Notes: generated by a model not told the origin, from the letters alone. Shown: positions 1,030 to 59,073, counted from the first letter of the stretch. The stretch is 64,000 nt of DNA from an uncultured bacterium (GCA_903892035.1 CAITGV010000001.1:355310-419309), one strand, 5' to 3'. Program-made: numbers and translations.

Positions 1030-2094
1030 ATGGAAGAAAAAACGAAAAAAACCGTAACAGTAAACACTACTCGGGTTAGAGAACTAAGTTCCGATTTAAA
1101 ATCGCCGGTAGAAATCGCAAAGAAACTGCATATCTCGCCCGATATGCTAACACCTTTATTCAAAAAAGGTGTGACGAAGTTTGTTTTCAGGCAAAAATCC
1201 TACATGAGCGTAAAAGAGGTTTGTGAATATTTAAAAATTCCAAATCTAAATGAGCCTTATGTTGGCATCAATGAAATCGCCGAGTACCTAAGTAAAAAGA
1301 GGTATGAGGTAATCGAGTTGGTGAAATCGGACATCCCAATTAGATTTTTTCAGTCTGAAGAAGGAAAGGGAAATAAGATTTTTTTCTTAAAGTCTCAATT
1401 CATTGAAGATGTTGAAAAATTTGGAGGCAAGGACGTATCACTTTCTTCATTTGAACCAAAGATTTTTTCTTTAGAGAGAAATAGGGGTGTTGTTGAATCA
1501 AACCTCGAAAGCTTATTTAATGGCGGAGAAATCGACGAGCGCTCTTACAAAATTTTTTCAGCTTTCGTTTTGGATTTCAGAGAAAAAAATGACATTTCAG
1601 CTGAATTTAACCTGACGAAGGAGTCCATTCGCCAGACTATCAAAAAAGTTTATAGTCTTTTGGATAATTTAAGCAACAATATGCTTTCTTATCTAAAAGA
1701 TTATAGAAAAGTGAATGATGAAAACGAAAAGCTTGTAGCAGAAAATCGCAAGCTTAAGGGTCGCATTGTTTCATTGGAGCATAATGAAAAGAAATTAGAG
1801 AAAACGATAATTTCTTTAAAAAATGTTCTAGTGAATGCCGGCAAAGAAGCTCAAGATCTTGCCGATGGGGTAATTGATGTAAAAGTCCCCACAGACACAA
1901 TTGAGTACCTGCACGAGAAAAAAGAAATTTCCTATGGTCTATATAATCGCCTTAAAATAAATAATATTCCTAATTTAGATATTTTGTGTACTTACACAAA
2001 AATCAAATTAATGAAAATTGAAAATTTCGGCATTATAAAACTTAAGGAAGTTACCAAGCTTCTCAAGAAGCATGGTAAAAAATTAAAGTCTTAG
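1030..2094 (+). CDS. hypothetical protein with repeated HTH-like segments and a coiled-coil
   Basis: 354-aa ORF with three short HTH-like stretches and a heptad-rich region (ENEKLVAENRKLKGRIVSLEHNEKKLEK). A terminator follows. Confidence 0.4.
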   Translation: MEEKTKKTVTVNTTRVRELSSDLKSPVEIAKKLHISPDMLTPLFKKGVTKFVFRQKSYMSVKEVCEYLKIPNLNEPYVGINEIAEYLSKKRYEVIELVKSDIPIRFFQSEEGKGNKIFFLKSQFIEDVEKFGGKDVSLSSFEPKIFSLERNRGVVESNLESLFNGGEIDERSYKIFSAFVLDFREKNDISAEFNLTKESIRQTIKKVYSLLDNLSNNMLSYLKDYRKVNDENEKLVAENRKLKGRIVSLEHNEKKLEKTIISLKNVLVNAGKEAQDLADGVIDVKVPTDTIEYLHEKKEISYGLYNRLKINNIPNLDILCTYTKIKLMKIENFGIIKLKEVTKLLKKHGKKLKS

Positions 2095-2103
2095 TATTTA
2101 GAA

Positions 2104-2136
2104 AGCAGCTGGATGATCTCCAGCTGTCTTTTTTTG
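2104..2136 (+). terminator. rho-independent terminator
   Basis: Hairpin agcagctggatgatctccagctgtc followed by a T7 run, immediately after the stop at 2094. Confidence 0.7.
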
Positions 2137-2152
2137 CCTAAAATTAAAACCT

Positions 2153-2193
2153 TGCCCCGCAAGGCCGGATGCAGGAAGAGGCCTTGCGGGGTT
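2153..2193. repeat. GC-rich hairpin CCCCGCAAGG...CCTTGCGGGG (copy 1)
   Basis: A 12-bp stem with a 13-nt loop. A second related copy lies at 2417-2440. Confidence 0.6.
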
Positions 2194-2416
2194 GTTTGTG
2201 GTAGGAAAATTAAAATCATTCTCTATTCTATTACTCATATCTAGGAGGGCGCTACTTCCAAGGTGTCGGGGAAACGAAAAAAGAGCCAATTAAGAACGAA
2301 TACTGGGAGTGCCCGAAGTGCTATCGGGGGAAATAAGGAAGTTTCCCCAGCTTTTAATATCAAAATGCAAATTAAAAGTAAATGCTTTTACTTTTAATTT
2401 GGTGTCCCAAGAGTTG

Positions 2417-2440
2417 CCCCGCAAGGAGTACCTTGCGGGG
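2417..2440. repeat. GC-rich hairpin CCCCGCAAGG-agta-CCTTGCGGGG (copy 2)
   Basis: A 10-bp perfect stem with the same arms as the 2153 copy. Confidence 0.6.
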
Positions 2441-2673
2441 CTTGGCAGGCGGGGCAGATGGCAAAAGATCCAGATTTTAAAAATCCTTCCGGCGGGCATT
2501 AAAAACCAAAACCCCGAATTTTTAAGCTTGGAAAATGGGGCAAAATGTGGGAGACAAGTTATCCCCATTGACTGTGAACGGTAGTTTACAGTATACTTAG
2601 ACTGTAGTCGTTAAAATAATATTATAATAATCTTAAGTATTTGTAGTAAAAATTTGCTACAATAAATAAACAC

Positions 2674-3597
2674 ATGAAAACACCACTTAACTATACAGGC
2701 AATAAGTCACGATTAATGGATCAATTTAAAAATCATTTTCCAAAAGATGTTAACGTGTTTGTTGATTTATTTTGTGGTGGTGCAACTGTCGGTTTGAGTG
2801 TAGATGCAAAAAAGGTTATTTTTATAGATAACAATATTAATGTAATTAATCTACTAAAGCATCTATCAAAATATAATTTTGATACACTACTACTCAGATT
2901 AGAAACATTGGTGGAAAAATATGGTCTATCTTACTCAGCTAAGCATGGTTATAAAAAATACAAAAAACTATCCGGAGAGACTGATAATAACGGATTTAAG
3001 GAATATAATACATTGGGTTATTACAAACTACGCTCAGATTACAACTCAGTAAAAGATAAGTCTTCCAAAGAAGCGTGCGACCTCCTCTATCTTTTGGTTG
3101 TCTATGCTTTCAATAACGATATGCGTTTCAATAGAAGTGGGGAATTTAACCTACCTATTGGCAAGACTGATTTAAATAAAAATAATATAGAGAAACTAAA
3201 ACAGTATATTGATAGAGTTAAAAAGATAGATTGTGATTTTATATGTGGTGATTTCAGAGAGGAAAATATAAAAAAGATTTTAATGGATGCAGATTTTATT
3301 TATGCTGATCCACCTTATCTGATAGGTAATGCTGTTTATAATGAAACAAGTAACTGGACAGAACAAACAGAACAGGAACTTATCGATTTATTAGAGTTGT
3401 TGAATAAAAGCAAAAAGAGGTTTGCAGTTTCAAATGTTTTAGATAAAGTCGGGGCATCAAATAAACCACTGTCTGATTGGTTGTTTAATCGAAACGATCT
3501 TCATATAGTTGACATTGATTACCACTATAGGGGTGCCAGTTATAATAAAATCAATAGAGCCGCAAGAGAAAGAGAAGTATTGATAAAAAATTTCTAA
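2674..3597 (+). CDS. D12-class N6-adenine DNA methyltransferase (Dam-like)
   Basis: N-terminal NYTGNKSRL and FVDLFCGGATVG (AdoMet-binding motif I), and a DPPY catalytic motif (ADPPYL). This order is typical of MethyltransfD12 family enzymes. Confidence 0.8.
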   Translation: MKTPLNYTGNKSRLMDQFKNHFPKDVNVFVDLFCGGATVGLSVDAKKVIFIDNNINVINLLKHLSKYNFDTLLLRLETLVEKYGLSYSAKHGYKKYKKLSGETDNNGFKEYNTLGYYKLRSDYNSVKDKSSKEACDLLYLLVVYAFNNDMRFNRSGEFNLPIGKTDLNKNNIEKLKQYIDRVKKIDCDFICGDFREENIKKILMDADFIYADPPYLIGNAVYNETSNWTEQTEQELIDLLELLNKSKKRFAVSNVLDKVGASNKPLSDWLFNRNDLHIVDIDYHYRGASYNKINRAAREREVLIKNF

Positions 3598-3601
3598 TTG
3601 T

Positions 3602-4612
3602 ATGGACTTATTGATTGGGAATAGAAGATACACAGGAAGCAAAAAAGCTCTCCTTGAAGATATTTATACAAGTATCAGTCCTTACCCTAAAGGAAGGATT
3701 GTATTTGCTGACTTATTTGCTGGTACTGGAATAGTGTCTGCCTTCATGCTTGGGAAGGGAATGAGTGTTATTGTAAATGATTTTTTGCAGTCGAATTATA
3801 TAGCATATCAAGCTTGGTTTGGATGTGGAGATTATAGTAAAAAAAAACTTGAGCGGATTATTGCTGAATTTAACTCCCTAAATAGCAGTAAGCTAAAAGA
3901 AAATTATTTCTCTAAGATTTACGGCAATAAATACTTTTCTGTATCTGATGCTAAAAAAATAGGATATATAAGAGAAAAACTCGAAAAAATAAAACTTACA
4001 AAGCGTGAAAAAAGCATACTAGTAACTTCACTCATGTACGCAACCGACAAGATTGCTAATACTGTCGGACATTTTGAGCATTTTCTTTCAAAAAAACCTC
4101 AAGATAAGGGAGTTTTATTGAAATTACCACATATTGAGCCATTTATTGGAAATGCAACAATATACAAAATGGATGCTAATAAACTTGCACGTGAGATTAC
4201 TTGTGATATTGCGTATATTGACCCGCCCTATAATGCTCGCCAGTATGTAAATTTTTACCACGTTCTGGAAAACTTAGTGCAGTGGGATAAACCAACTGAG
4301 TTTGAAGGAACTTCAATGAAGTTTAAAAGAAATCATTTAAAAAGTGATTACTCAAAGTCAAAAGCACCTATGGTTTTCAAAGATCTAATTGATAATTTAC
4401 AAGCAAAGTTAATTGTGGTATCGTATAATAACACTTACTCCGCAAAGAGTAGTGCCTCTAATAATAAAATATCTGAATCCCAGTTATTAGATATTCTTTC
4501 GTCTAAAGGTAAAGTCACGGTTAGCGAAATCAAACACAGGTCTTTTAATAGCGGTAAAACAGACTTCAAGGATCATAAAGAAATCTTATATATCTGTAAA
4601 ACAAATTTATGA
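3602..4612 (+). CDS. second D12-class N6-adenine DNA methyltransferase
   Basis: RYTGSKKAL, FADLFAGTG and DPPYNAR motifs. Lies immediately downstream of the first MTase and overlaps the next ORF by 4 nt (ATGA). Confidence 0.75.
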   Translation: MDLLIGNRRYTGSKKALLEDIYTSISPYPKGRIVFADLFAGTGIVSAFMLGKGMSVIVNDFLQSNYIAYQAWFGCGDYSKKKLERIIAEFNSLNSSKLKENYFSKIYGNKYFSVSDAKKIGYIREKLEKIKLTKREKSILVTSLMYATDKIANTVGHFEHFLSKKPQDKGVLLKLPHIEPFIGNATIYKMDANKLAREITCDIAYIDPPYNARQYVNFYHVLENLVQWDKPTEFEGTSMKFKRNHLKSDYSKSKAPMVFKDLIDNLQAKLIVVSYNNTYSAKSSASNNKISESQLLDILSSKGKVTVSEIKHRSFNSGKTDFKDHKEILYICKTNL

Positions 4613-6015
4613 GTTTATTACAAACATATATAGAAAGAAATAAAAATCATGAGTGGTTTGCTAAATATTTTTCTTTAGGAAAAGGTAGTAGTGGTCGTTT
4701 GTTTGAGTATACTAACACTAATTTTAGAGAGCAAAAATCTTTTTTTGAGCAATTTAAAAAATTTGAAAAGATTGAAGATAAAGAAAGGAAAGACTGGGGA
4801 TTAGTTGAATCTAGTGGACAAGAAAAAGATAAGCAGAGAGTTGTAAATATGCTTGCCTCGAAGCTTTTTATGAGGGAGTTAAAAGGCGCAAGAAGGTCTA
4901 AAAATTTTATTTTTCATAAGACCAAAAAAGGTGCAATATACCACAAGTTTTTAAGTGAAAATTTCTCCGAACCAGAAAAGTGGTTTCTAAATTACCTATT
5001 TTTATTGGATGGTCATTATACAAACGAGGAGAGATATATAATCAAAAGAACCAATTTACTTCATCAGAAAATGTCGGCGGTTATTTTAAATACAGAAGCA
5101 TTAATAAGAAAAATAGAAGAAGTTATTGATAAGTCATACAATAAATATGAGTTGATAAAAAAAGATTTTTTCTACCTTAGTTCTTTTTACGATGACGCAG
5201 AATTTTTAGAACTATATTTACATTCAAATGATTTAGAAAAAAAAGAATTGCATGACTATATAAGTAAAAATTTAAAAGAAAAAAATGATGCATGTTGTAT
5301 ATCTAAAAAATATAAACCCAAGAGTAATTTTAATGCGGGTACTTTTATCGATGAAAGTAAGGTATTTTACTTCACTCTTATTTTAGAACAAGTAAAAAAT
5401 AATAATATAAGCAATGTGGTAACTCAATTATTGAGAAAGTATACTTTTATATATAAAAAAACAAATGTCAAAAAAGTCAAAAGTTTTATTGACGAAAAGT
5501 TTGCATTGGATATTTTTTATGCAGTATTTGTTAACGTTCTTGATATAAAAGAAGAACTAACAGAGGAAACTCGCGTAGCAGTAGAGGGGATGGAACTAGA
5601 AGAAGTCGGTCCTCAGAATTATATAGATGATACTACAATTGAAGGAAGGAGGATAACAAAACAATTATTTACACTTAAGAAAAAAAGAGCAAGAGAAATT
5701 GCTAATTATAAGTGTTCTCTAGAGAAACTGAATAATTGTAGATATTTCACTAATAAAGTAAGCAATAAGCCATATATTGAGGTTAATCATCTTATACCGC
5801 AAGAATTTAGGAATGAATTTTCTAATTCAATTGAGGTTTTTGCTAATTATACTGCCATATGTCCTCACTGCCACGCAATGTTACATAAGGCGGTAGATAA
5901 TGAAAGAAAACCATTAATAAATTATTTATACAATGAGAGATCAGCCAAATTAGAAGCCATGGGCATAGGTGTTGAATTAAAAACACTGTATGAATTTTAT
6001 AGAATTAATATTTAA
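4609..6015 (+). CDS. HNH-nuclease domain protein, putative restriction endonuclease of the R-M system
   Basis: C-terminal HNH motif (NHLIP...N...CPHCHAMLH). Translationally coupled to the upstream MTases. The roughly 380-aa N-terminal region has no recognisable motif. Confidence 0.55.
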   Translation: MSLLQTYIERNKNHEWFAKYFSLGKGSSGRLFEYTNTNFREQKSFFEQFKKFEKIEDKERKDWGLVESSGQEKDKQRVVNMLASKLFMRELKGARRSKNFIFHKTKKGAIYHKFLSENFSEPEKWFLNYLFLLDGHYTNEERYIIKRTNLLHQKMSAVILNTEALIRKIEEVIDKSYNKYELIKKDFFYLSSFYDDAEFLELYLHSNDLEKKELHDYISKNLKEKNDACCISKKYKPKSNFNAGTFIDESKVFYFTLILEQVKNNNISNVVTQLLRKYTFIYKKTNVKKVKSFIDEKFALDIFYAVFVNVLDIKEELTEETRVAVEGMELEEVGPQNYIDDTTIEGRRITKQLFTLKKKRAREIANYKCSLEKLNNCRYFTNKVSNKPYIEVNHLIPQEFRNEFSNSIEVFANYTAICPHCHAMLHKAVDNERKPLINYLYNERSAKLEAMGIGVELKTLYEFYRINI

Positions 6016-6124
6016 AAGAAAATAAAACTTATAAATAGAAGAAGACTCCAACTAGGAATATGGGTCAATGTGTGTTATTGTTTTAATATATAAAACCTAT
6101 TATTATTTTAACTATTTAAGCATT

Positions 6125-7822
6125 ATGGAATTAATTAAAAGTTCGTCAAGAAGAAATGTAGATAATTTGTTTAATTCTTCTACAGAAATTTATAAAATAC
6201 CTGATTATCAAAGAGATTATAAATGGACAACCGACGAAGCTGAACAATTTTTAGAAGATTTCTCAAATGCTGATTTTTTTGAACCACAGTACTTGGGAGT
6301 TATTGTAACAAATTCGTCACAAACTAAGTATCGAACGTTTGACGAAATTGAAGTTATTGATGGACAACAAAGACTAACTACATTATTTTTAATATTTTTA
6401 GCAATAAGAAAATTTGCCAAAGATAACAATAATGATTCTTTGGTTATAACCTTAGATCAAAAATTAATATCACACGAAGAACTGCATCAGATTTATAAAA
6501 TTAAAACTCATAAATATTTACAAGATTTTTTTGATGCTGCATTTAATTATAAAAGTGGCTCGGCGCTTAAAGGAAAAACCGTCAAAAAAGTATATGAAGC
6601 AATTTATAATTACATTTCAACATATATAAAACCTGATCGTTTGAAAGATTTTTATTTAGCAGTTATAAAATCGGAGTTCGTTTACATTGAAATAGGGAAT
6701 GCTTCTCCTTTTGAAATTTTTGAGCGAATGAATTACCGCGGTATGGATCTGGCAGTATCTGATTTATTAAAGAATAAATTATTTTTACAGGCACACAAGA
6801 CTGACGATTTAGAAAATATGAAAGAGCATTGGGATAAAATAATAGATGACGCAGGAAGGGTCACTGACAACATAAATAAACTTAGTTTTTCTGCCTTAAT
6901 TCGCTATTTCTATATTTCAAGATTTGGATACATAACAGAAAAAAAATTATATGGTAAATTAGTTGATCAATATAATACACATTATAAGGATAATTTAAAT
7001 ATATTTATTGAAGATTTTGAATCGGTAATTAAATTGCTCTTAATATTATCAAAAAAAAGAAATGAATTATCTTCTGAGGAAATTAAGAGTCTACCAGGTA
7101 GAAATTCTGAGAGAGGTTATTTAAGAACGATATTATCCCTGAAGACTTTTGGAGTTATTCAACCATATTCGCTACTTCTTTCGTTGTTTGCAAAAGAACG
7201 TAATTTAGATTTAAGAAATTGGTTAAATAGAATTGAAGTGTTTCATTTTGTCTATTCATATATTTCGAATGGTCCCGCCCGTGAATTTGAGAAGAAATAT
7301 TCTGAAACTGCAAAAAATGTATTTAATGCAGAGTCAGATAATGACGTTCAAGCTGAATTGAATAACTTTGTTAATGATTTAGGTATTCTGATAAATAAGA
7401 CCACGACAAAGGAAAAATTTATTAGTGATGTTTCGTCTAAGTTGGTTTACGGTTCGGACAGTGATGCAATCAAATTTTTTTATGAATATATCGAAGAAGA
7501 ATATTTTGGAAGAAATCTACAGGGAATTACATTTATAAATAATCCGCAAATTTCGTTAGACCATATTTGTCCTCAAAATGAAAAAGAAGACCATAGTTTA
7601 GGCAATTTAATTGTTTTAGAAACTGATATTAATCAACAACTTCAAGATGCTAGCTATAAAATAAAAAAGGAAAAGATTCTTTCTGGTAGTGGAATTAGTA
7701 TTACAAAAGAACTATTTAATAAATATGATAATTGGGGGGAAGATCAAATTAATGATTGGGGTAAGTATATTGCTTCTATTTTTTGGGACGAAATCGTTAT
7801 TAAGTATTTTAATCTAAGGTAA
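6125..7822 (+). CDS. DUF262/DUF1524 (GmrSD-like) type IV restriction-type nuclease
   Basis: N-terminal ParB/DUF262 motifs (IPDYQRDYKW, IDGQQRLTT) and C-terminal DUF1524 His-Me finger (LDHICPQ...GNLIVLE). The in-frame ORF begins at 6068, but the likely start is the Met at 6125 (MELIKSS). Confidence 0.7.
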   Translation: MELIKSSSRRNVDNLFNSSTEIYKIPDYQRDYKWTTDEAEQFLEDFSNADFFEPQYLGVIVTNSSQTKYRTFDEIEVIDGQQRLTTLFLIFLAIRKFAKDNNNDSLVITLDQKLISHEELHQIYKIKTHKYLQDFFDAAFNYKSGSALKGKTVKKVYEAIYNYISTYIKPDRLKDFYLAVIKSEFVYIEIGNASPFEIFERMNYRGMDLAVSDLLKNKLFLQAHKTDDLENMKEHWDKIIDDAGRVTDNINKLSFSALIRYFYISRFGYITEKKLYGKLVDQYNTHYKDNLNIFIEDFESVIKLLLILSKKRNELSSEEIKSLPGRNSERGYLRTILSLKTFGVIQPYSLLLSLFAKERNLDLRNWLNRIEVFHFVYSYISNGPAREFEKKYSETAKNVFNAESDNDVQAELNNFVNDLGILINKTTTKEKFISDVSSKLVYGSDSDAIKFFYEYIEEEYFGRNLQGITFINNPQISLDHICPQNEKEDHSLGNLIVLETDINQQLQDASYKIKKEKILSGSGISITKELFNKYDNWGEDQINDWGKYIASIFWDEIVIKYFNLR

Positions 7823-10380: not shown

Positions 10381-11379
10381 ATGAAAAAGAAAATCGTAGA
10401 AAAAAAGAATAATAAAAATGGTTTGGTAATCTATCAGGCAAAATCTGGAGCAATTGAGCTCCGGGGAGATATTAGTAAGGAGACTATTTGGGCGACACAA
10501 GCTCAAATTATAAAGTTATTTGGAATTGACCAATCTGTTGTGTCTAGACACATTAAAAATGTCTTTAAAGATAAGGAAATTGACCTAAGAAGCAATATGC
10601 AAAAAATGCATATTGCAAATTCAGACAAACCAGTGATTCTGTATTCATTAGATGTTATTCTTGCCGTTGGATATCGCACAAATTCAAAAACTGCTATTGA
10701 TTTTCGAAGATGGGCCACAAAGACTCTTAAAGAATATCTTGTTCAGGGATATGTTGTAAATGAAAAGCGTCTGCTTGAAGCCAAAGAGAATTTCAATAAA
10801 TTACAAAATACGATTGCATTTCTTAATGAAAAATCACACAAGGAATTACTTTCTGGGCAAGGTAAAGAGATTTTGGATTTGCTTGGTTCGTATGCCAAGA
10901 CACTCACATTGCTCGATGAGTATGATAGAGGCGAGCTCAGTTCCGCAAAAGGCACAAAAGGTAAATTTGTTATTTCATATGAACATTGTTTGGAAGTAAT
11001 TATCGAAGTCAGGAATGAACTTGCAAACAAAGGAGAAGCGAGTGAGCTTTTTGGTTGTGAGCGAGATGGTTCGTTTGGGGGAATTATCAAAGGGCTTTAT
11101 CAAACATTTGGTGGAAAGGAGTTATATTCAACTCTTGAAATAAAAGCTGCACATATCTTGTATTTGATTATAAAAGATCATCCTTTTTCTGATGGGAACA
11201 AAAGAATGGGTTCATTTCTCTTTGTGTATTTCTTAGACAAAAACAATGCTCTATATCGTGAACATGGTGAGAAGAAAATTAATGACAATGCGCTCGCTTC
11301 GCTCGCGCTTCTAATTGCCGAAAGCGATCCTAATGAAAAAGATCAAATGATTGCACTTATTACACAATTGTTGAAGTAA
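10381..11379 (+). CDS. RhuM-family / Fic-Doc domain protein (Doc-type motif HPFSDGNKR)
   Basis: The C-terminal motif HPFSDGNKR matches the Doc-subfamily signature Hx[FY]x[DN]GNKR. The N-terminal region resembles RhuM-like proteins. Confidence 0.6.
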   Translation: MKKKIVEKKNNKNGLVIYQAKSGAIELRGDISKETIWATQAQIIKLFGIDQSVVSRHIKNVFKDKEIDLRSNMQKMHIANSDKPVILYSLDVILAVGYRTNSKTAIDFRRWATKTLKEYLVQGYVVNEKRLLEAKENFNKLQNTIAFLNEKSHKELLSGQGKEILDLLGSYAKTLTLLDEYDRGELSSAKGTKGKFVISYEHCLEVIIEVRNELANKGEASELFGCERDGSFGGIIKGLYQTFGGKELYSTLEIKAAHILYLIIKDHPFSDGNKRMGSFLFVYFLDKNNALYREHGEKKINDNALASLALLIAESDPNEKDQMIALITQLLK

Positions 11380-55192: not shown

Positions 55193-55396
55193 CAGAACGA
55201 TCATTCATTAATAAATAAATCCTGTTGCACACAAAAATTATTTCTTCCAAAGTAAGAATTTATTTTTTATTTTGGTGGGTCTTTGAGCCGTGTGTAAACA
55301 GAACCTCGAAGTTTTTATTTTTTTCGCCAAGCGGTTGGTATCAGAGAAATAAAAACTTCGAAAAACGAAAATTGTGATTTTTAAATTTCCTAATAG

Positions 55397-58850
<3,454 letters not shown>

Positions 58851-58963
58851 AAATTTGAAAATCACACTCATTATTTATATAATGAGCAAAAATATTCGTT
58901 GAGGAAATTAAAATCCTCTTTTGTTTCTTCCCATAATCGTGGGAAGTTAGTATTCAGTTTTAT

Positions 58964-59073
58964 GTTTTGGTGGTTTAACGCTAGGGTCACACCTTTTCCC
59001 ATTCCGAACAGAGAAGTTAAGCCTAGTAGTGGCGATGATAGTCTTTTAGGCAAAAGTAGCTAGCCGCCAGAAC
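58964..59073 (+). rRNA. rrf: 5S ribosomal RNA
   Basis: ...CCCATTCCGAACAGAGAAGTTAAGCC... with helix I pairing TGGTGG/CCGCCA. About 110 nt, lying about 110 nt after the 23S. Confidence 0.8.

What the first reader, a model, noticed from the sequence alone, without database searches (positions are those of the whole stretch)
2674..7822. Defence island: two D12 adenine methyltransferases, an HNH endonuclease and a GmrSD-like type IV nuclease
Two tandem Dam-like (DPPY) MTases are translationally coupled to a 468-aa protein whose only recognisable part is a C-terminal HNH motif. Two adenine MTases plus an HNH nuclease with a large N-terminal recognition region is the pattern of Type IIS systems with asymmetric sites. 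A DUF262/DUF1524 (GmrSD/BrxU/SspE-like) modification-dependent nuclease follows directly. The island is bounded upstream by a 570-nt non-coding stretch with GC hairpins and downstream by a high-GC TfoX-N gene, consistent with horizontal acquisition.
Basis: partly seen in the sequence, partly recalled or inferred. Interest (0 to 1): 0.55.

Follow-up and report, generated by a model that had tools for sequence, protein, structure and literature searches.

The report
Adenine-methylase restriction operon plus GmrSD nuclease
This stretch carries a three-gene restriction-modification operon (two adenine methylases and a nuclease with a previously undescribed DNA-reading domain) followed by a separate nuclease of the kind that cuts modified phage DNA. 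It is an ordinary kind of bacterial defence, but the cutting enzyme belongs to an uncharacterised family.

Summary
Four co-oriented genes sit at 2674-7822:
- M1 is a Dam-family D12 methylase with a DPPY motif.
- M2 is a second, non-paralogous D12 methylase with a DPPY motif.
- R is a 468-aa protein whose start overlaps the M2 stop (ATGA).
- A GmrSD-family protein carries DUF262 and DUF1524.

R has two parts. Residues 1-318 have no Pfam, PDB-sequence or Foldseek match. The C-terminus is a McrA-like HNH finger (four Cys, H394, N413, H422, H426).

The M1-M2-R order recurs in 44 of 51 informative loci across many phyla, with unrelated flanks. Homologues that lack the methylases have lost the catalytic His, which is what restriction-modification logic predicts. 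The closest annotated relatives of the methylase pair serve AlwI-family Type IIS enzymes (AlwI: GGATC 4/5). So the Type IIS reading is well supported but unproven, and the site is unknown.

The window's GmrSD is of the HEC-06 type, an experimentally shown stand-alone defence, and is most likely independent.

The more interesting result lies outside the window. With the same methylase pair, R's N-domain is elsewhere fused to McrB (with McrC), or stands alone directly before a different GmrSD subfamily. It looks like a portable site-reader.

Verdict: new member of a known kind, moderate interest.

The parts
2095..2673 (.). Non-coding spacer upstream of the operon. It holds the terminator of the upstream gene (2105-2127 plus a T-run), four copies of GCCCCGCAAGG forming two perfect GC hairpins (2154-2192, 2416-2441), a 15-bp AT hairpin (2368-2401), and a promoter-like site at 2568-2597.
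   Evidence: Sequence. Repeats. The motif occurs 5 times in the window against 0.24 expected, 4 of them here. Terminator and promoter scan. Fold z = -5.3 on both strands. No Rfam match. Not conserved in any related locus. Its function is unexplained.
2674..3597 (+). M1: Dam-family D12 N6-adenine DNA methyltransferase (307 aa). FCGG at 2770-2781, DPPY at 3307-3318.
   Evidence: Pfam PF02086 4.1e-33 and TIGR00571 139 bits, above the cut-off. PADLOC MTase_II 4.8e-84. T4 Dam structures 4.7e-34, aligned end to end. 36% identical to the second methylase of a Lactococcus AlwI-family system.
3602..4612 (+). M2: second D12 N6-adenine DNA methyltransferase (336 aa), of a different lineage from M1. FAGTG at 3716-3730, DPPY at 4220-4231.
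   Evidence: Pfam PF02086 2.2e-27. PADLOC MTase_II 2.2e-112; it matches the N-half of fused two-domain methylase profiles whose C-half matches M1. 47% identical to plasmid methylases that precede AlwI-family REases. 25% identical to M1.
4609..5562 (+). R, N-terminal domain (residues 1-318): uncharacterised, mostly helical domain with a winged-helix-like hairpin (strands 87-91 and 100-104). Inferred reader of the unmethylated target site.
   Evidence: AF2 model pLDDT 92, pTM 0.91. No Pfam hit, no PDB sequence hit, no Foldseek PDB match. Only 139 representatives among 1.84 billion proteins. Found fused to HNH, fused to McrB AAA+, or alone. Invariant residues T37, N38, R40, K75, G108, K234.
5563..5625 (+). 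R, acidic linker of variable length (residues about 319-339).
   Evidence: Lowest pLDDT of the model, 67-79. This is the region of length variation in the alignment.
5626..6015 (+). R, C-terminal HNH (beta-beta-alpha-metal) nuclease domain. Zn-binding Cys C369/C377/C418/C421, EVNHLIP at 5779-5799 (general base H394), N413, H422, H426 (5845-5886).
   Evidence: Pfam HNH 19.5 bits, below the 21.4 cut-off. Foldseek best hits EcoKMcrA 6ghc and ScoMcrA 5zmm. phmmer hit to 6ghc at E = 0.012. Invariant columns. H394 is replaced by Q or R only in homologues without intact methylases.
6125..7822 (+). GmrSD-family (DUF262 + DUF1524) nuclease of the HEC-06 type, 565 aa from the ATG at 6125 (the mechanical ORF starts at 6068). 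DGQQR at 6359-6373, DHICP at 7559-7573.
   Evidence: Pfam GmrSD_N 1e-32 and GmrSD_C 4.7e-13. PADLOC HEC-06 1.7e-58. PDB 9jfl DUF262 protein 6e-07. A 110-nt AT-rich gap after R, with no terminator found. HEC-06 is an experimentally shown single-gene defence (bioRxiv 10.1101/2024.01.29.577857).

Best explanation
Positions 2674-6015 are one operon encoding a methylation-protected restriction-modification system, most likely Type IIS.

Proposed mechanism:
- M1 and M2 each methylate an adenine on one strand of a short asymmetric site.
- R binds that site through its N-terminal domain when the site is unmethylated.
- R cuts DNA with its C-terminal HNH nuclease, probably at or near a fixed offset. 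It has one catalytic centre per chain, so two chains or two binding events are needed for a double-strand break.
- The site is unknown. GGATC-like, or another 5-bp asymmetric site with an A on each strand, is a lead only.

The next gene (6125-7822) is an HEC-06-type GmrSD nuclease. It most likely acts on its own against phage DNA with modified bases. It would then complement the R-M, which acts on unmodified DNA.

What is shown: gene structure, catalytic motifs, conserved operon linkage, the two-domain build of R, and loss of the catalytic His where methylases are missing.

What is inferred: the asymmetric site, the cleavage position, the blocking of R by methylation, and the independence of the GmrSD gene.
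For: Motifs and families:
- Both methylases are above the Pfam D12 threshold and carry intact SAM-binding and DPPY motifs.
- R carries a complete HNH set: four Cys, H394, N413, H422, H426. Its confident model (pLDDT 92) matches McrA-type HNH domains.

Linkage:
- 44 of 51 informative loci carry M1-M2-R, mostly with overlapping stop and start codons.
- The flanks are unrelated.
- The closest cassette (84% M1 identity) sits behind a different upstream gene, which I read as a dnaK-type gene end.

Toxicity logic:
- Six homologues without methylases (L043, L050, L052, L053, L055, L056) have lost the motif. Four are seen to read EVHQIIP or EVHRIIP in place of E-x-H-H-x-I-P. In the other two the printed stretch starts after that position.
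- One locus with broken methylases (L048) reads EVHQFIP.
- 43 of the 47 homologues scored with both methylases keep HH; one has NH and three escaped the strict search pattern.

Domain modularity:
- The N-domain (31% identity, E = 3e-37) is fused to McrB AAA+ and followed by McrC behind the same methylase pair.
- Methylases are 50-65% identical across the effector classes.

Type IIS lead:
- M2 and M1 match the two halves of fused methylases.
- Their closest annotated relatives precede AlwI-family REases.
- AlwI is GGATC 4/5 with two strand-specific methylases (PMC4081073).
- M1 aligns end to end with the GATC methylase T4 Dam.

GmrSD independence:
- The best match is HEC-06, a stand-alone defence often embedded, co-oriented, in other R-M-like systems.
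- It belongs to a different subfamily from the GmrSDs that recur next to this cassette elsewhere.
Against: - No biochemical or methylome data exist. The site, the cleavage offset and protection by methylation are all untested.
- The window's R has N393 where about 90% of homologues have His (EVNH instead of EVHH). From my knowledge of colicin E9 and Cas9 HNH sites, this position is a metal ligand, so activity could be reduced.
- The HNH match is below Pfam's threshold.
- pTM 0.91 implies that the HNH domain packs on the N-domain rather than being loosely tethered. The cut could therefore lie within or next to the site.
- No depletion of GGATC, GGATG or similar sites is seen in the 64 kb. That is uninformative for a protected host.
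- No terminator separates R from the GmrSD gene. GmrSD genes are adjacent and co-oriented with this cassette in 7 of 72 loci, against 0 of 80 control loci. Functional coupling is therefore not excluded.
Confidence: 0.8

Rival explanations
1. All four genes form one composite system. The GmrSD nuclease is recruited or licensed by the site-reading N-domain of R, so the R-M has two nuclease arms, or GmrSD is the main one.
For: - In L091, L093/L094 and L095 a stand-alone N-domain protein (302-307 aa, no HNH) follows the same M1-M2 pair. It is followed within 2-11 nt by a 691-694-aa GmrSD protein with intact DGQQR and EHLMP motifs.
- GmrSD genes also flank full cassettes in L066, L028, L048 and L006, always on the same strand.
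- The enrichment is 7 of 72 cassette loci against 0 of 80 control loci.
- There is no terminator between R and the GmrSD gene in the window.
Against: - The recurrent partners belong mostly to one subfamily (PADLOC PDLC02693, 1e-98 to 1e-154) and most carry an extra C-terminal stretch of about 120 aa.
- The window's protein is HEC-06-type, scores only 1.5e-37 against that model, is 25-27% identical to the partners, and lacks the extension.
- HEC-06 works as a single gene.
- The window's R has its own complete nuclease.
- A 110-nt gap with a promoter-like site precedes the GmrSD gene.
- Most cassettes (about 90%) have no GmrSD neighbour.
Confidence: 0.15
2. The restriction arm is attenuated or dead. 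The H393N change has weakened R, leaving in effect two orphan adenine methylases plus a DNA-binding relic.
For: - N393 replaces a nearly invariant His.
- This family demonstrably produces inactivated, methylase-less descendants.
- It also produces a stand-alone N-domain followed only by a terminator, in L181.
Against: - The general base H394 and every other motif residue are intact.
- The same N393 occurs in the 79%-identical homologue, which also keeps both methylases.
- Asp at this position is normal in other active HNH enzymes (Cas9 D839; my knowledge), and Asn could plausibly bind the metal in the same way.
- The ORF is full-length and translationally coupled to M2.
Confidence: 0.1
3. R is unrelated to the methylases. 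It would be a homing or mobile HNH endonuclease, or a modification-dependent Type IV enzyme, that merely sits next to them.
For: The HNH domain's nearest structural relatives (McrA, ScoMcrA) are modification-dependent enzymes. The Pfam HNH match is weak.
Against: - Linkage to M1-M2 holds in 86% of informative loci, with overlapping codons.
- The catalytic His is lost exactly where the methylases are absent.
- There are no phage homologues, and only HNH-fragment hits in viral contigs.
- An m6A-dependent nuclease co-transcribed with m6A methylases would be self-destructive.
Confidence: 0.03

Closest known systems
AlwI-type Type IIS R-M systems (AlwI GGATC 4/5, with two strand-specific D12 adenine methylases)
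   Same: The methylation half is homologous. M2 is 47% and M1 36% identical to the paired or fused methylases that precede AlwI-family REases on Lactococcus and Enterococcus plasmids. M2 and M1 map to the N- and C-halves of fused methylase profiles. The logic is the same: one methylase per strand of an asymmetric site (PMC4081073).
   Different: The endonuclease is unrelated. R has no RE_AlwI match, and hhalign gives a probability of 0.2%. The nuclease is HNH rather than the AlwI-family cleavage domain. The gene order is M1-M2 rather than M2-M1. The methylases here lack the HTH_17 N-terminus of the Enterococcus fusion.
HNH Type IIS endonucleases MnlI (CCTC 7/6) and HpyAV (CCTTC 6/5)
   Same: The architecture is the same in principle: a DNA-recognition part plus a single HNH catalytic site, in a Type IIS setting (PMC4081073).
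   Different: No sequence relationship was detected. From the sequence of their sites (my inference), the C/T-only strand has no adenine, so they cannot be served by two adenine methylases. R's N-domain has no known relatives.
LlaJI-type R-M (McrB-like GTPase plus McrC-like nuclease acting on an unmodified asymmetric site, with two methylases)
   Same: Relatives of this cassette (L010 and 8 representative clusters) have exactly this build. Two methylases are followed by the N-domain fused to McrB AAA_5 and its lid, then by McrC. As in LlaJI, a site-reading N-domain steers a Type IV-style engine to unmodified DNA (PMC12707154).
   Different: The window itself has no AAA+ or McrC component; its effector is a fused HNH. 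LlaJI uses a B3 domain (PMC12707154) and, to my knowledge, cytosine methylases.
GmrSD family: HEC-06, BrxU, SspE
   Same: The fourth gene has DUF262 with DGQQR and DUF1524 with a (D/E)HxxP motif. Its best match is HEC-06. Like BrxU and HEC-06, it sits co-oriented beside a system that targets unmodified DNA.
   Different: The substrate is unknown. It is only distantly related to the solved DUF262 protein 9jfl (6e-07, N-terminal part only). It belongs to a different subfamily from the GmrSDs that follow stand-alone N-domains in related cassettes.
EcoKMcrA / ScoMcrA HNH domains
   Same: These are the best structural matches for residues about 340-468. They share the Cys4 zinc site and the H-N-H core.
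   Different: Those enzymes are modification-dependent and use other reader domains. The matches are weak (Foldseek E = 0.04-0.4, TM 0.15 over the whole query) and limited to the nuclease domain.

Membership tests
D12-class N6-adenine DNA methyltransferase (PF02086) | Profile match above the curated threshold, for both proteins | tested here: met
   M1 115.6 bits and M2 96.9 bits against a cut-off of 22. M1 also passes TIGR00571 Dam family, 139 against 115.
D12-class N6-adenine DNA methyltransferase (PF02086) | SAM-binding FxGxG-type motif and catalytic DPPY | tested here: met
   M1 has FCGG at 33-36 and DPPY at 212-215. M2 has FAGTG at 39-43 and DPPY at 207-210.
D12-class N6-adenine DNA methyltransferase (PF02086) | m6A formed at a defined sequence | not testable with these tools
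   This needs a methylome or an in vitro assay.
Type II restriction-modification system | Endonuclease gene linked to its methylase gene(s), with the linkage conserved across hosts | tested here: met
   44 of 51 informative loci carry M1-M2-R. The median M2-R gap is 1.5 nt. Flanks are unrelated.
Type II restriction-modification system | The nuclease is tolerated only with its methylase | tested here: met
   This is an indirect, comparative test. Homologues without intact methylases have lost the HNH motif, with the general-base His replaced by Q or R in the five where that position is visible.
Type II restriction-modification system | Cleavage at a defined sequence, blocked by the cognate methylation | not testable with these tools
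   Requires biochemistry.
Type IIS subtype | Asymmetric recognition sequence | not testable with these tools
   Inferred only. The evidence is two non-paralogous methylases whose relatives serve AlwI-family IIS enzymes.
Type IIS subtype | Separable recognition and cleavage domains | tested here: met
   The AF2 model shows two domains joined by a linker. The N-domain occurs with HNH, with McrB AAA+, or alone. The HNH domain occurs with other N-termini.
Type IIS subtype | Cleavage at a fixed distance outside the site | not testable with these tools
   Requires run-off sequencing of cleavage products.
HNH / beta-beta-alpha-metal nuclease (PF01844) | Profile match above the curated threshold | tested here: not met
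   19.5 bits against 21.4. NCBIfam gives no hit.
HNH / beta-beta-alpha-metal nuclease (PF01844) | Catalytic His, structural Asn, metal-ligand His, and the fold | tested here: met
   H394, N413, H422, H426 and four Cys are invariant in 39 sequences. The model's C-terminal domain matches McrA, ScoMcrA and Cas9 HNH domains.
AlwI-family restriction endonuclease (PF09491) | Sequence or profile similarity to RE_AlwI | tested here: not met
   No Pfam hit. hhalign of the N-domain profile against two AlwI-family REases gives a probability of 0.2%.
LlaJI/McrBC-type R-M | McrB-like AAA+ GTPase and McrC-like nuclease subunits | tested here: not met
   Absent from the window. Present in relatives such as L010.
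GmrSD family (Type IV) | DUF262 (PF03235) and DUF1524 (PF07510), both above threshold | tested here: met
   114.3 bits against 33.2, and 49.7 against 23.
GmrSD family (Type IV) | DGQQR NTPase motif and (D/E)HxxP nuclease motif | tested here: met
   DGQQR at residues 98-102 and DHICP at 498-502 of the 584-aa ORF. Mutating the same motifs abolishes HEC-06 defence.
GmrSD family (Type IV) | Dependence on modified DNA | not testable with these tools
   Needs phage or DNA substrates with defined modifications.

The most novel reading that the evidence does not exclude
R's N-terminal domain may be a portable reader of the unmethylated target site. With one conserved pair of adenine methylases, it would be wired to three different nuclease engines:
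- a fused HNH, as in this window;
- a fused McrB GTPase with McrC;
- a separate GmrSD-family nuclease encoded 2-11 nt downstream of a stand-alone N-domain protein.

If the third arrangement is a true two-subunit enzyme, a nuclease family known only for attacking modified DNA (or phosphorothioate-linked, as in SspE) has been turned into the restriction arm of a classical methylation-protected R-M system.
Probability: 0.45. Interest if true: 0.6.

Novelty: new member of a known kind. Interest (0 to 1): 0.42.

Why it matters
- **A new restriction enzyme family.** The family (about 460 aa, found in dozens of uncultured lineages) has an unknown and possibly new specificity. Its recognition domain has no known relatives. 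That is useful for enzyme discovery and for annotation, since these proteins are now labelled 'hypothetical' or 'HNH endonuclease'.
- **A test of domain function without biochemistry.** The comparative pattern offers a clean natural experiment: one reader domain with three nuclease engines, and loss of the catalytic His wherever the methylases are gone.
- **A route from Type IV to Type II logic.** If the stand-alone reader really works with GmrSD, it shows how Type IV-style nucleases can be converted to act on unmodified DNA.
- **Limits.** For the window itself the biology is conventional: an R-M operon beside a complementary Type IV nuclease in a small, AT-rich genome that looks like Patescibacteria.

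Tried and rejected
- **Homology to AlwI-family REases.** Rejected: hhalign probability 0.2%.
- **Empty-site test for horizontal acquisition.** Eighty loci with relatives of the neighbouring TfoX_N gene were fetched. None shares the window's flanking gene order, so no insertion boundaries could be drawn.
- **Metagenome survey of what follows stand-alone N-domains.**
  - Alignments A2 and A3 were too divergent for the pattern tool.
  - My hand-made DNA pattern had a 90-N gap instead of 88 and found nothing.
  - Better patterns would have covered too few members.
  - Context therefore rests on a handful of exact-protein look-ups.
- **Site avoidance.** GATC, GGATC, GGATG, GCATC, GAGTC and others show observed/expected ratios of 0.6-1.4 in 64 kb. 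This is uninformative.
- **Spacer 2095-2673 as a known RNA.** No Rfam family matches at E <= 1 except a chance sroD hit on the terminator. There is no tRNA or tmRNA. It is not conserved in any fetched locus.
- **Phage or plasmid origin.** R has no phage homologue. Viral contigs gave only short HNH fragments. Plasmids match only the HNH domain.
- **LlaI literature lead.** My recollection that LlaI pairs a FokI-like methylase with McrBC-like subunits found no paper in the library. It was not used as evidence.

Full report
**1. What is in the sequence**

Four co-oriented ORFs occupy 2674-7822.

M1 (2674-3597) and M2 (3602-4612) are both D12-class adenine methyltransferases.
- Both score above Pfam's threshold, and M1 also passes the curated Dam-family model.
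- Both keep the SAM-binding and DPPY motifs.
- They are only 25% identical, so they are two separate lineages, not a tandem duplicate.
- M1 aligns end to end with phage T4 Dam (4.7e-34).

The genes are tightly coupled. The M1 stop and M2 start are 4 nt apart, and the M2 stop overlaps the R start as ATGA.

R (4609-6015, 468 aa) gives only a sub-threshold HNH hit in Pfam, nothing in NCBIfam, and a weak hit to a Type IV REase model in PADLOC.

The fourth ORF is a GmrSD-family protein. Both domains are above threshold, and the DGQQR and DHICP motifs are present. Its probable start is 6125, not 6068.

The segment is the lowest-GC stretch of its size in the window: 29.2% against 35.9%.

**2. Anatomy of R**

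Seventy full-length relatives were found. Nearly all are unnamed metagenomic proteins of 455-475 aa.

An alignment of 39 of them shows an invariant HNH core:
- C369 and C377;
- Y389-x-E-x-(H)-H394-x-x-P;
- N413-Y;
- C418-P-x-C421-H422-x-x-x-H426.

With that alignment AlphaFold2 gives a confident model (pLDDT 92.3, pTM 0.91). It has three parts:
- a mostly helical N-terminal domain (1-318) with a beta-hairpin 'wing' at 87-104;
- an acidic linker of lower confidence (about 319-339);
- a C-terminal beta-beta-alpha-metal domain.

Foldseek against the PDB matches only the C-terminal domain, to EcoKMcrA, ScoMcrA, Cas9 HNH, VcaM4I and Cap5. The N-domain has no Pfam, PDB-sequence or Foldseek match. 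A few members give a faint winged-helix hit at the hairpin.

The window's protein, and its 79%-identical relative, have Asn at position 393 where about 90% of members have His. The general base H394 is intact.

**3. Is it a restriction-modification system?**

I scanned one genome per species and analysed all fetched loci.
- 59 loci encode a full-length R homologue.
- 51 of those have at least 2.1 kb of upstream DNA.
- 44 of the 51 carry M1 and M2 homologues immediately upstream, in the same order and on the same strand.
- Median gaps are -2.5 nt (M1 to M2) and 1.5 nt (M2 to R). The commonest M2-R junction is the same 4-nt overlap.

Hosts span Patescibacteria, Bacteroidales, Clostridia, Mycoplasmatales, Leptotrichiaceae, Omnitrophota and a Nanoarchaeota bin. 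The flanking genes differ from locus to locus. The closest cassette (84% M1 identity) lies behind a different upstream gene, which I read as a dnaK-type gene end. This is how a mobile R-M cassette behaves.

The exceptions are the strongest evidence.
- Six homologues without nearby methylases sit in bins mostly labelled Clostridia or Christensenellaceae. In those examined, they lie at a syntenic chromosomal site, between genes I read as a glycyl-tRNA synthetase and a pantothenate kinase.
- All six fail the motif. Four visibly read EVHQIIP or EVHRIIP, so the general-base His is replaced. In the other two the printed stretch starts after that position.
- One locus with a truncated M1 and a frameshifted M2 reads EVHQFIP.
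- Among the 47 homologues scored with both methylases, 43 keep HH. One has NH, and three escaped my strict search pattern.

So the nuclease is retained in active form only where the methylases are present.

**4. Which kind of R-M?**

M2 and M1 match the N- and C-terminal halves of fused two-domain methylase profiles in PADLOC.

The closest annotated relatives of M2 (47% identity) lie on Lactococcus and Enterococcus plasmids. There they form either a pair of D12 methylases or one 700-aa fusion. In both cases an 'AlwI family type II restriction endonuclease' follows directly, confirmed as RE_AlwI by Pfam. M1 is 36% identical to the second methylase of the Lactococcus pair.

The Type II review describes AlwI as a Type IIS system (GGATC 4/5). 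Its two methylases, joined in one chain, are specific for GGATC and GATCC respectively (PMC4081073). The same review lists MnlI and HpyAV as HNH-type IIS enzymes.

R itself is unrelated to AlwI-family enzymes (hhalign probability 0.2%). That is usual for endonucleases that serve homologous methylases.

I therefore read the operon as a Type IIS-like system: AlwI-type methylation combined with an HNH endonuclease of a new family. The site is unknown. GGATC-like is a lead, consistent with M1's resemblance to a GATC methylase. However, 36-47% identity does not fix specificity, and M1 differs from T4 Dam at two positions of the recognition hairpin (which residues contact DNA is from my memory, not tested here).

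**5. The N-domain is a swappable module**

A profile of the N-domain, searched against 1.84 billion representative proteins, finds only 139 relatives. They have three architectures.

(a) N-domain plus HNH. This is the majority.

(b) N-domain plus a McrB-type AAA_5 domain.
- There are 8 representative clusters, of 582-930 aa.
- In L010 this protein follows an M1-M2 pair (55-58% identical to the window's) and is followed by McrC.
- This is the LlaJI design, in which a McrBC-like engine acts on an unmodified asymmetric site protected by two methylases (PMC12707154).

(c) A stand-alone N-domain of about 305 aa, in about 20 clusters. The contexts recovered were:
- In L091, L093/L094 and L095 it follows M1-M2, and a 691-694-aa GmrSD-family gene with intact motifs begins 2-11 nt after it.
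- In L092 a separate 147-aa HNH ORF follows.
- In L181 only a terminator follows.

Methylases are 50-65% identical, and N-domains 30-44% identical, across all three classes. The simplest reading is that M1, M2 and the N-domain form a conserved 'mark and read' unit, to which different nucleases are attached.

**6. The GmrSD gene in the window**

GmrSD-family genes lie next to the cassette, always co-oriented, in 7 of 72 cassette loci. The figures for comparison are 0 of 80 control loci and 1 of 24 loci with only an HNH match.

The recurrent neighbours are mostly one subfamily. L091a, L093, L066, L048 and L006 have PADLOC PDLC02693 as best hit (1e-98 to 1e-154), and most carry an extra C-terminal stretch of about 120 aa.

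The window's protein differs from that subfamily:
- Its best hit is HEC-06 (1.7e-58), and it scores only 1.5e-37 against PDLC02693.
- It is 25-27% identical to the partner subfamily.
- It has no C-terminal extension.

HEC-06 has been shown to defend as a single gene, dependent on its DGQQR and EHICP motifs. GmrSD-like genes are reported to be embedded, co-oriented, in other systems that target unmodified DNA (bioRxiv 10.1101/2024.01.29.577857).

The window's R has its own nuclease. A 110-nt AT-rich gap with a promoter-like site precedes the GmrSD gene.

I therefore consider the GmrSD gene an independent, complementary Type IV-like defence (about 0.8), with functional coupling not excluded (about 0.15).

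**7. Horizontal acquisition**

Three observations support it:
- the low GC content;
- the phylogenetic spread of the cassette;
- the different flanks in close relatives.

The direct test failed. No relative with conserved flanking synteny was found, so no empty site could be compared.

The 579-nt upstream spacer is strongly structured on both strands (z = -5.3). It contains a motif, GCCCCGCAAGG, that is almost confined to it. It matches no Rfam family and is not conserved elsewhere. Its role is unexplained, and it is not evidence of an island boundary.

**8. Verdict**

- What is in the window is a conventional kind of system: an R-M operon plus a Type IV-like nuclease.
- Its endonuclease belongs to an uncharacterised family with a novel recognition domain, so I rate it a new member of a known kind.
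- The more novel lead is the reuse of that domain with McrBC and GmrSD engines. It comes from related loci rather than from this window.

Noticed in passing
L043, L050, L052, L053, L055, L056 (R homologues at about 6001-7560 of each locus): R homologues of 501-548 aa without any nearby methylase. In the loci examined they sit at a syntenic chromosomal position, between genes I read as a glycyl-tRNA synthetase and a type III pantothenate kinase. Where the motif is visible, the HNH general-base His is replaced by Q or R (EVHQIIP, EVHRIIP). They look like domesticated, nuclease-dead, site-specific DNA-binding proteins.
   Followed up: partly
L091 2254-5255; L093 3423-6418; L095 1253-2249: A stand-alone N-domain protein (302-307 aa, no nuclease) follows the same two methylases. 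A 691-694-aa GmrSD-family gene (PADLOC PDLC02693 type, with an extra C-terminal stretch of about 120 aa) begins 2-11 nt after it. A small HTH gene precedes the methylases in L091 and L093.
   Followed up: partly
L029 4552-7386 and L058 4532-7386: Two tandem R paralogues follow one M1-M2 pair, and both have HNH motifs. In the first copy the usual IP after HH is changed to VQ. This could be a heterodimeric enzyme with one catalytic site per strand.
   Followed up: partly
window 2095-2673: This 579-nt spacer holds several perfect hairpins, and four of the window's five copies of GCCCCGCAAGG. Its fold z-score is -5.3 on both strands. It has no Rfam match and no conservation in related loci. It could be an unannotated structured RNA, a cluster of palindromic repeats or a relic. 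Unexplained.
   Followed up: partly
window 55391-59072: The 23S rRNA spans 3460 nt against a 2925-nt model, about 535 nt extra, with no ORF of 90 aa or more inside. A 5S rRNA follows. No 16S rRNA and not a single tRNA gene is found in the 64 kb. To my knowledge, unlinked rRNA genes and rRNA insertions are typical of Patescibacteria/CPR genomes.
   Followed up: no
window 1030-2094: This 354-aa protein lies just upstream of the spacer. It gives weak excisionase-type HTH_17 hits (also faintly the MADS1 HTH of a methylation-associated defence system), a coiled-coil middle and an RpoA-CTD-like C-terminus. It is not found next to the cassette elsewhere. It could be a regulator or a mobile-element remnant.
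   Followed up: no
window 10381-11379: A RhuM-family/Fic-DOC domain protein lies 2.5 kb downstream of the island, among MsrA, MsrB and TfoX_N genes. It may be another accessory or toxin-type gene in the same neighbourhood.
   Followed up: no
L183 5794-7896: The Enterococcus fused two-domain D12 methylase next to an AlwI-family REase carries an N-terminal HTH_17 domain, presumably for autoregulation. The split methylases of the window lack it, and no small HTH (controller-type) gene is present upstream in the window.
   Followed up: no
L181 1621-2662: A stand-alone N-domain gene follows M1-M2 and ends in a clear intrinsic terminator, with no nuclease gene after it. This is either a decayed system or a methylase-plus-reader pair with a non-restriction role.
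   Followed up: no
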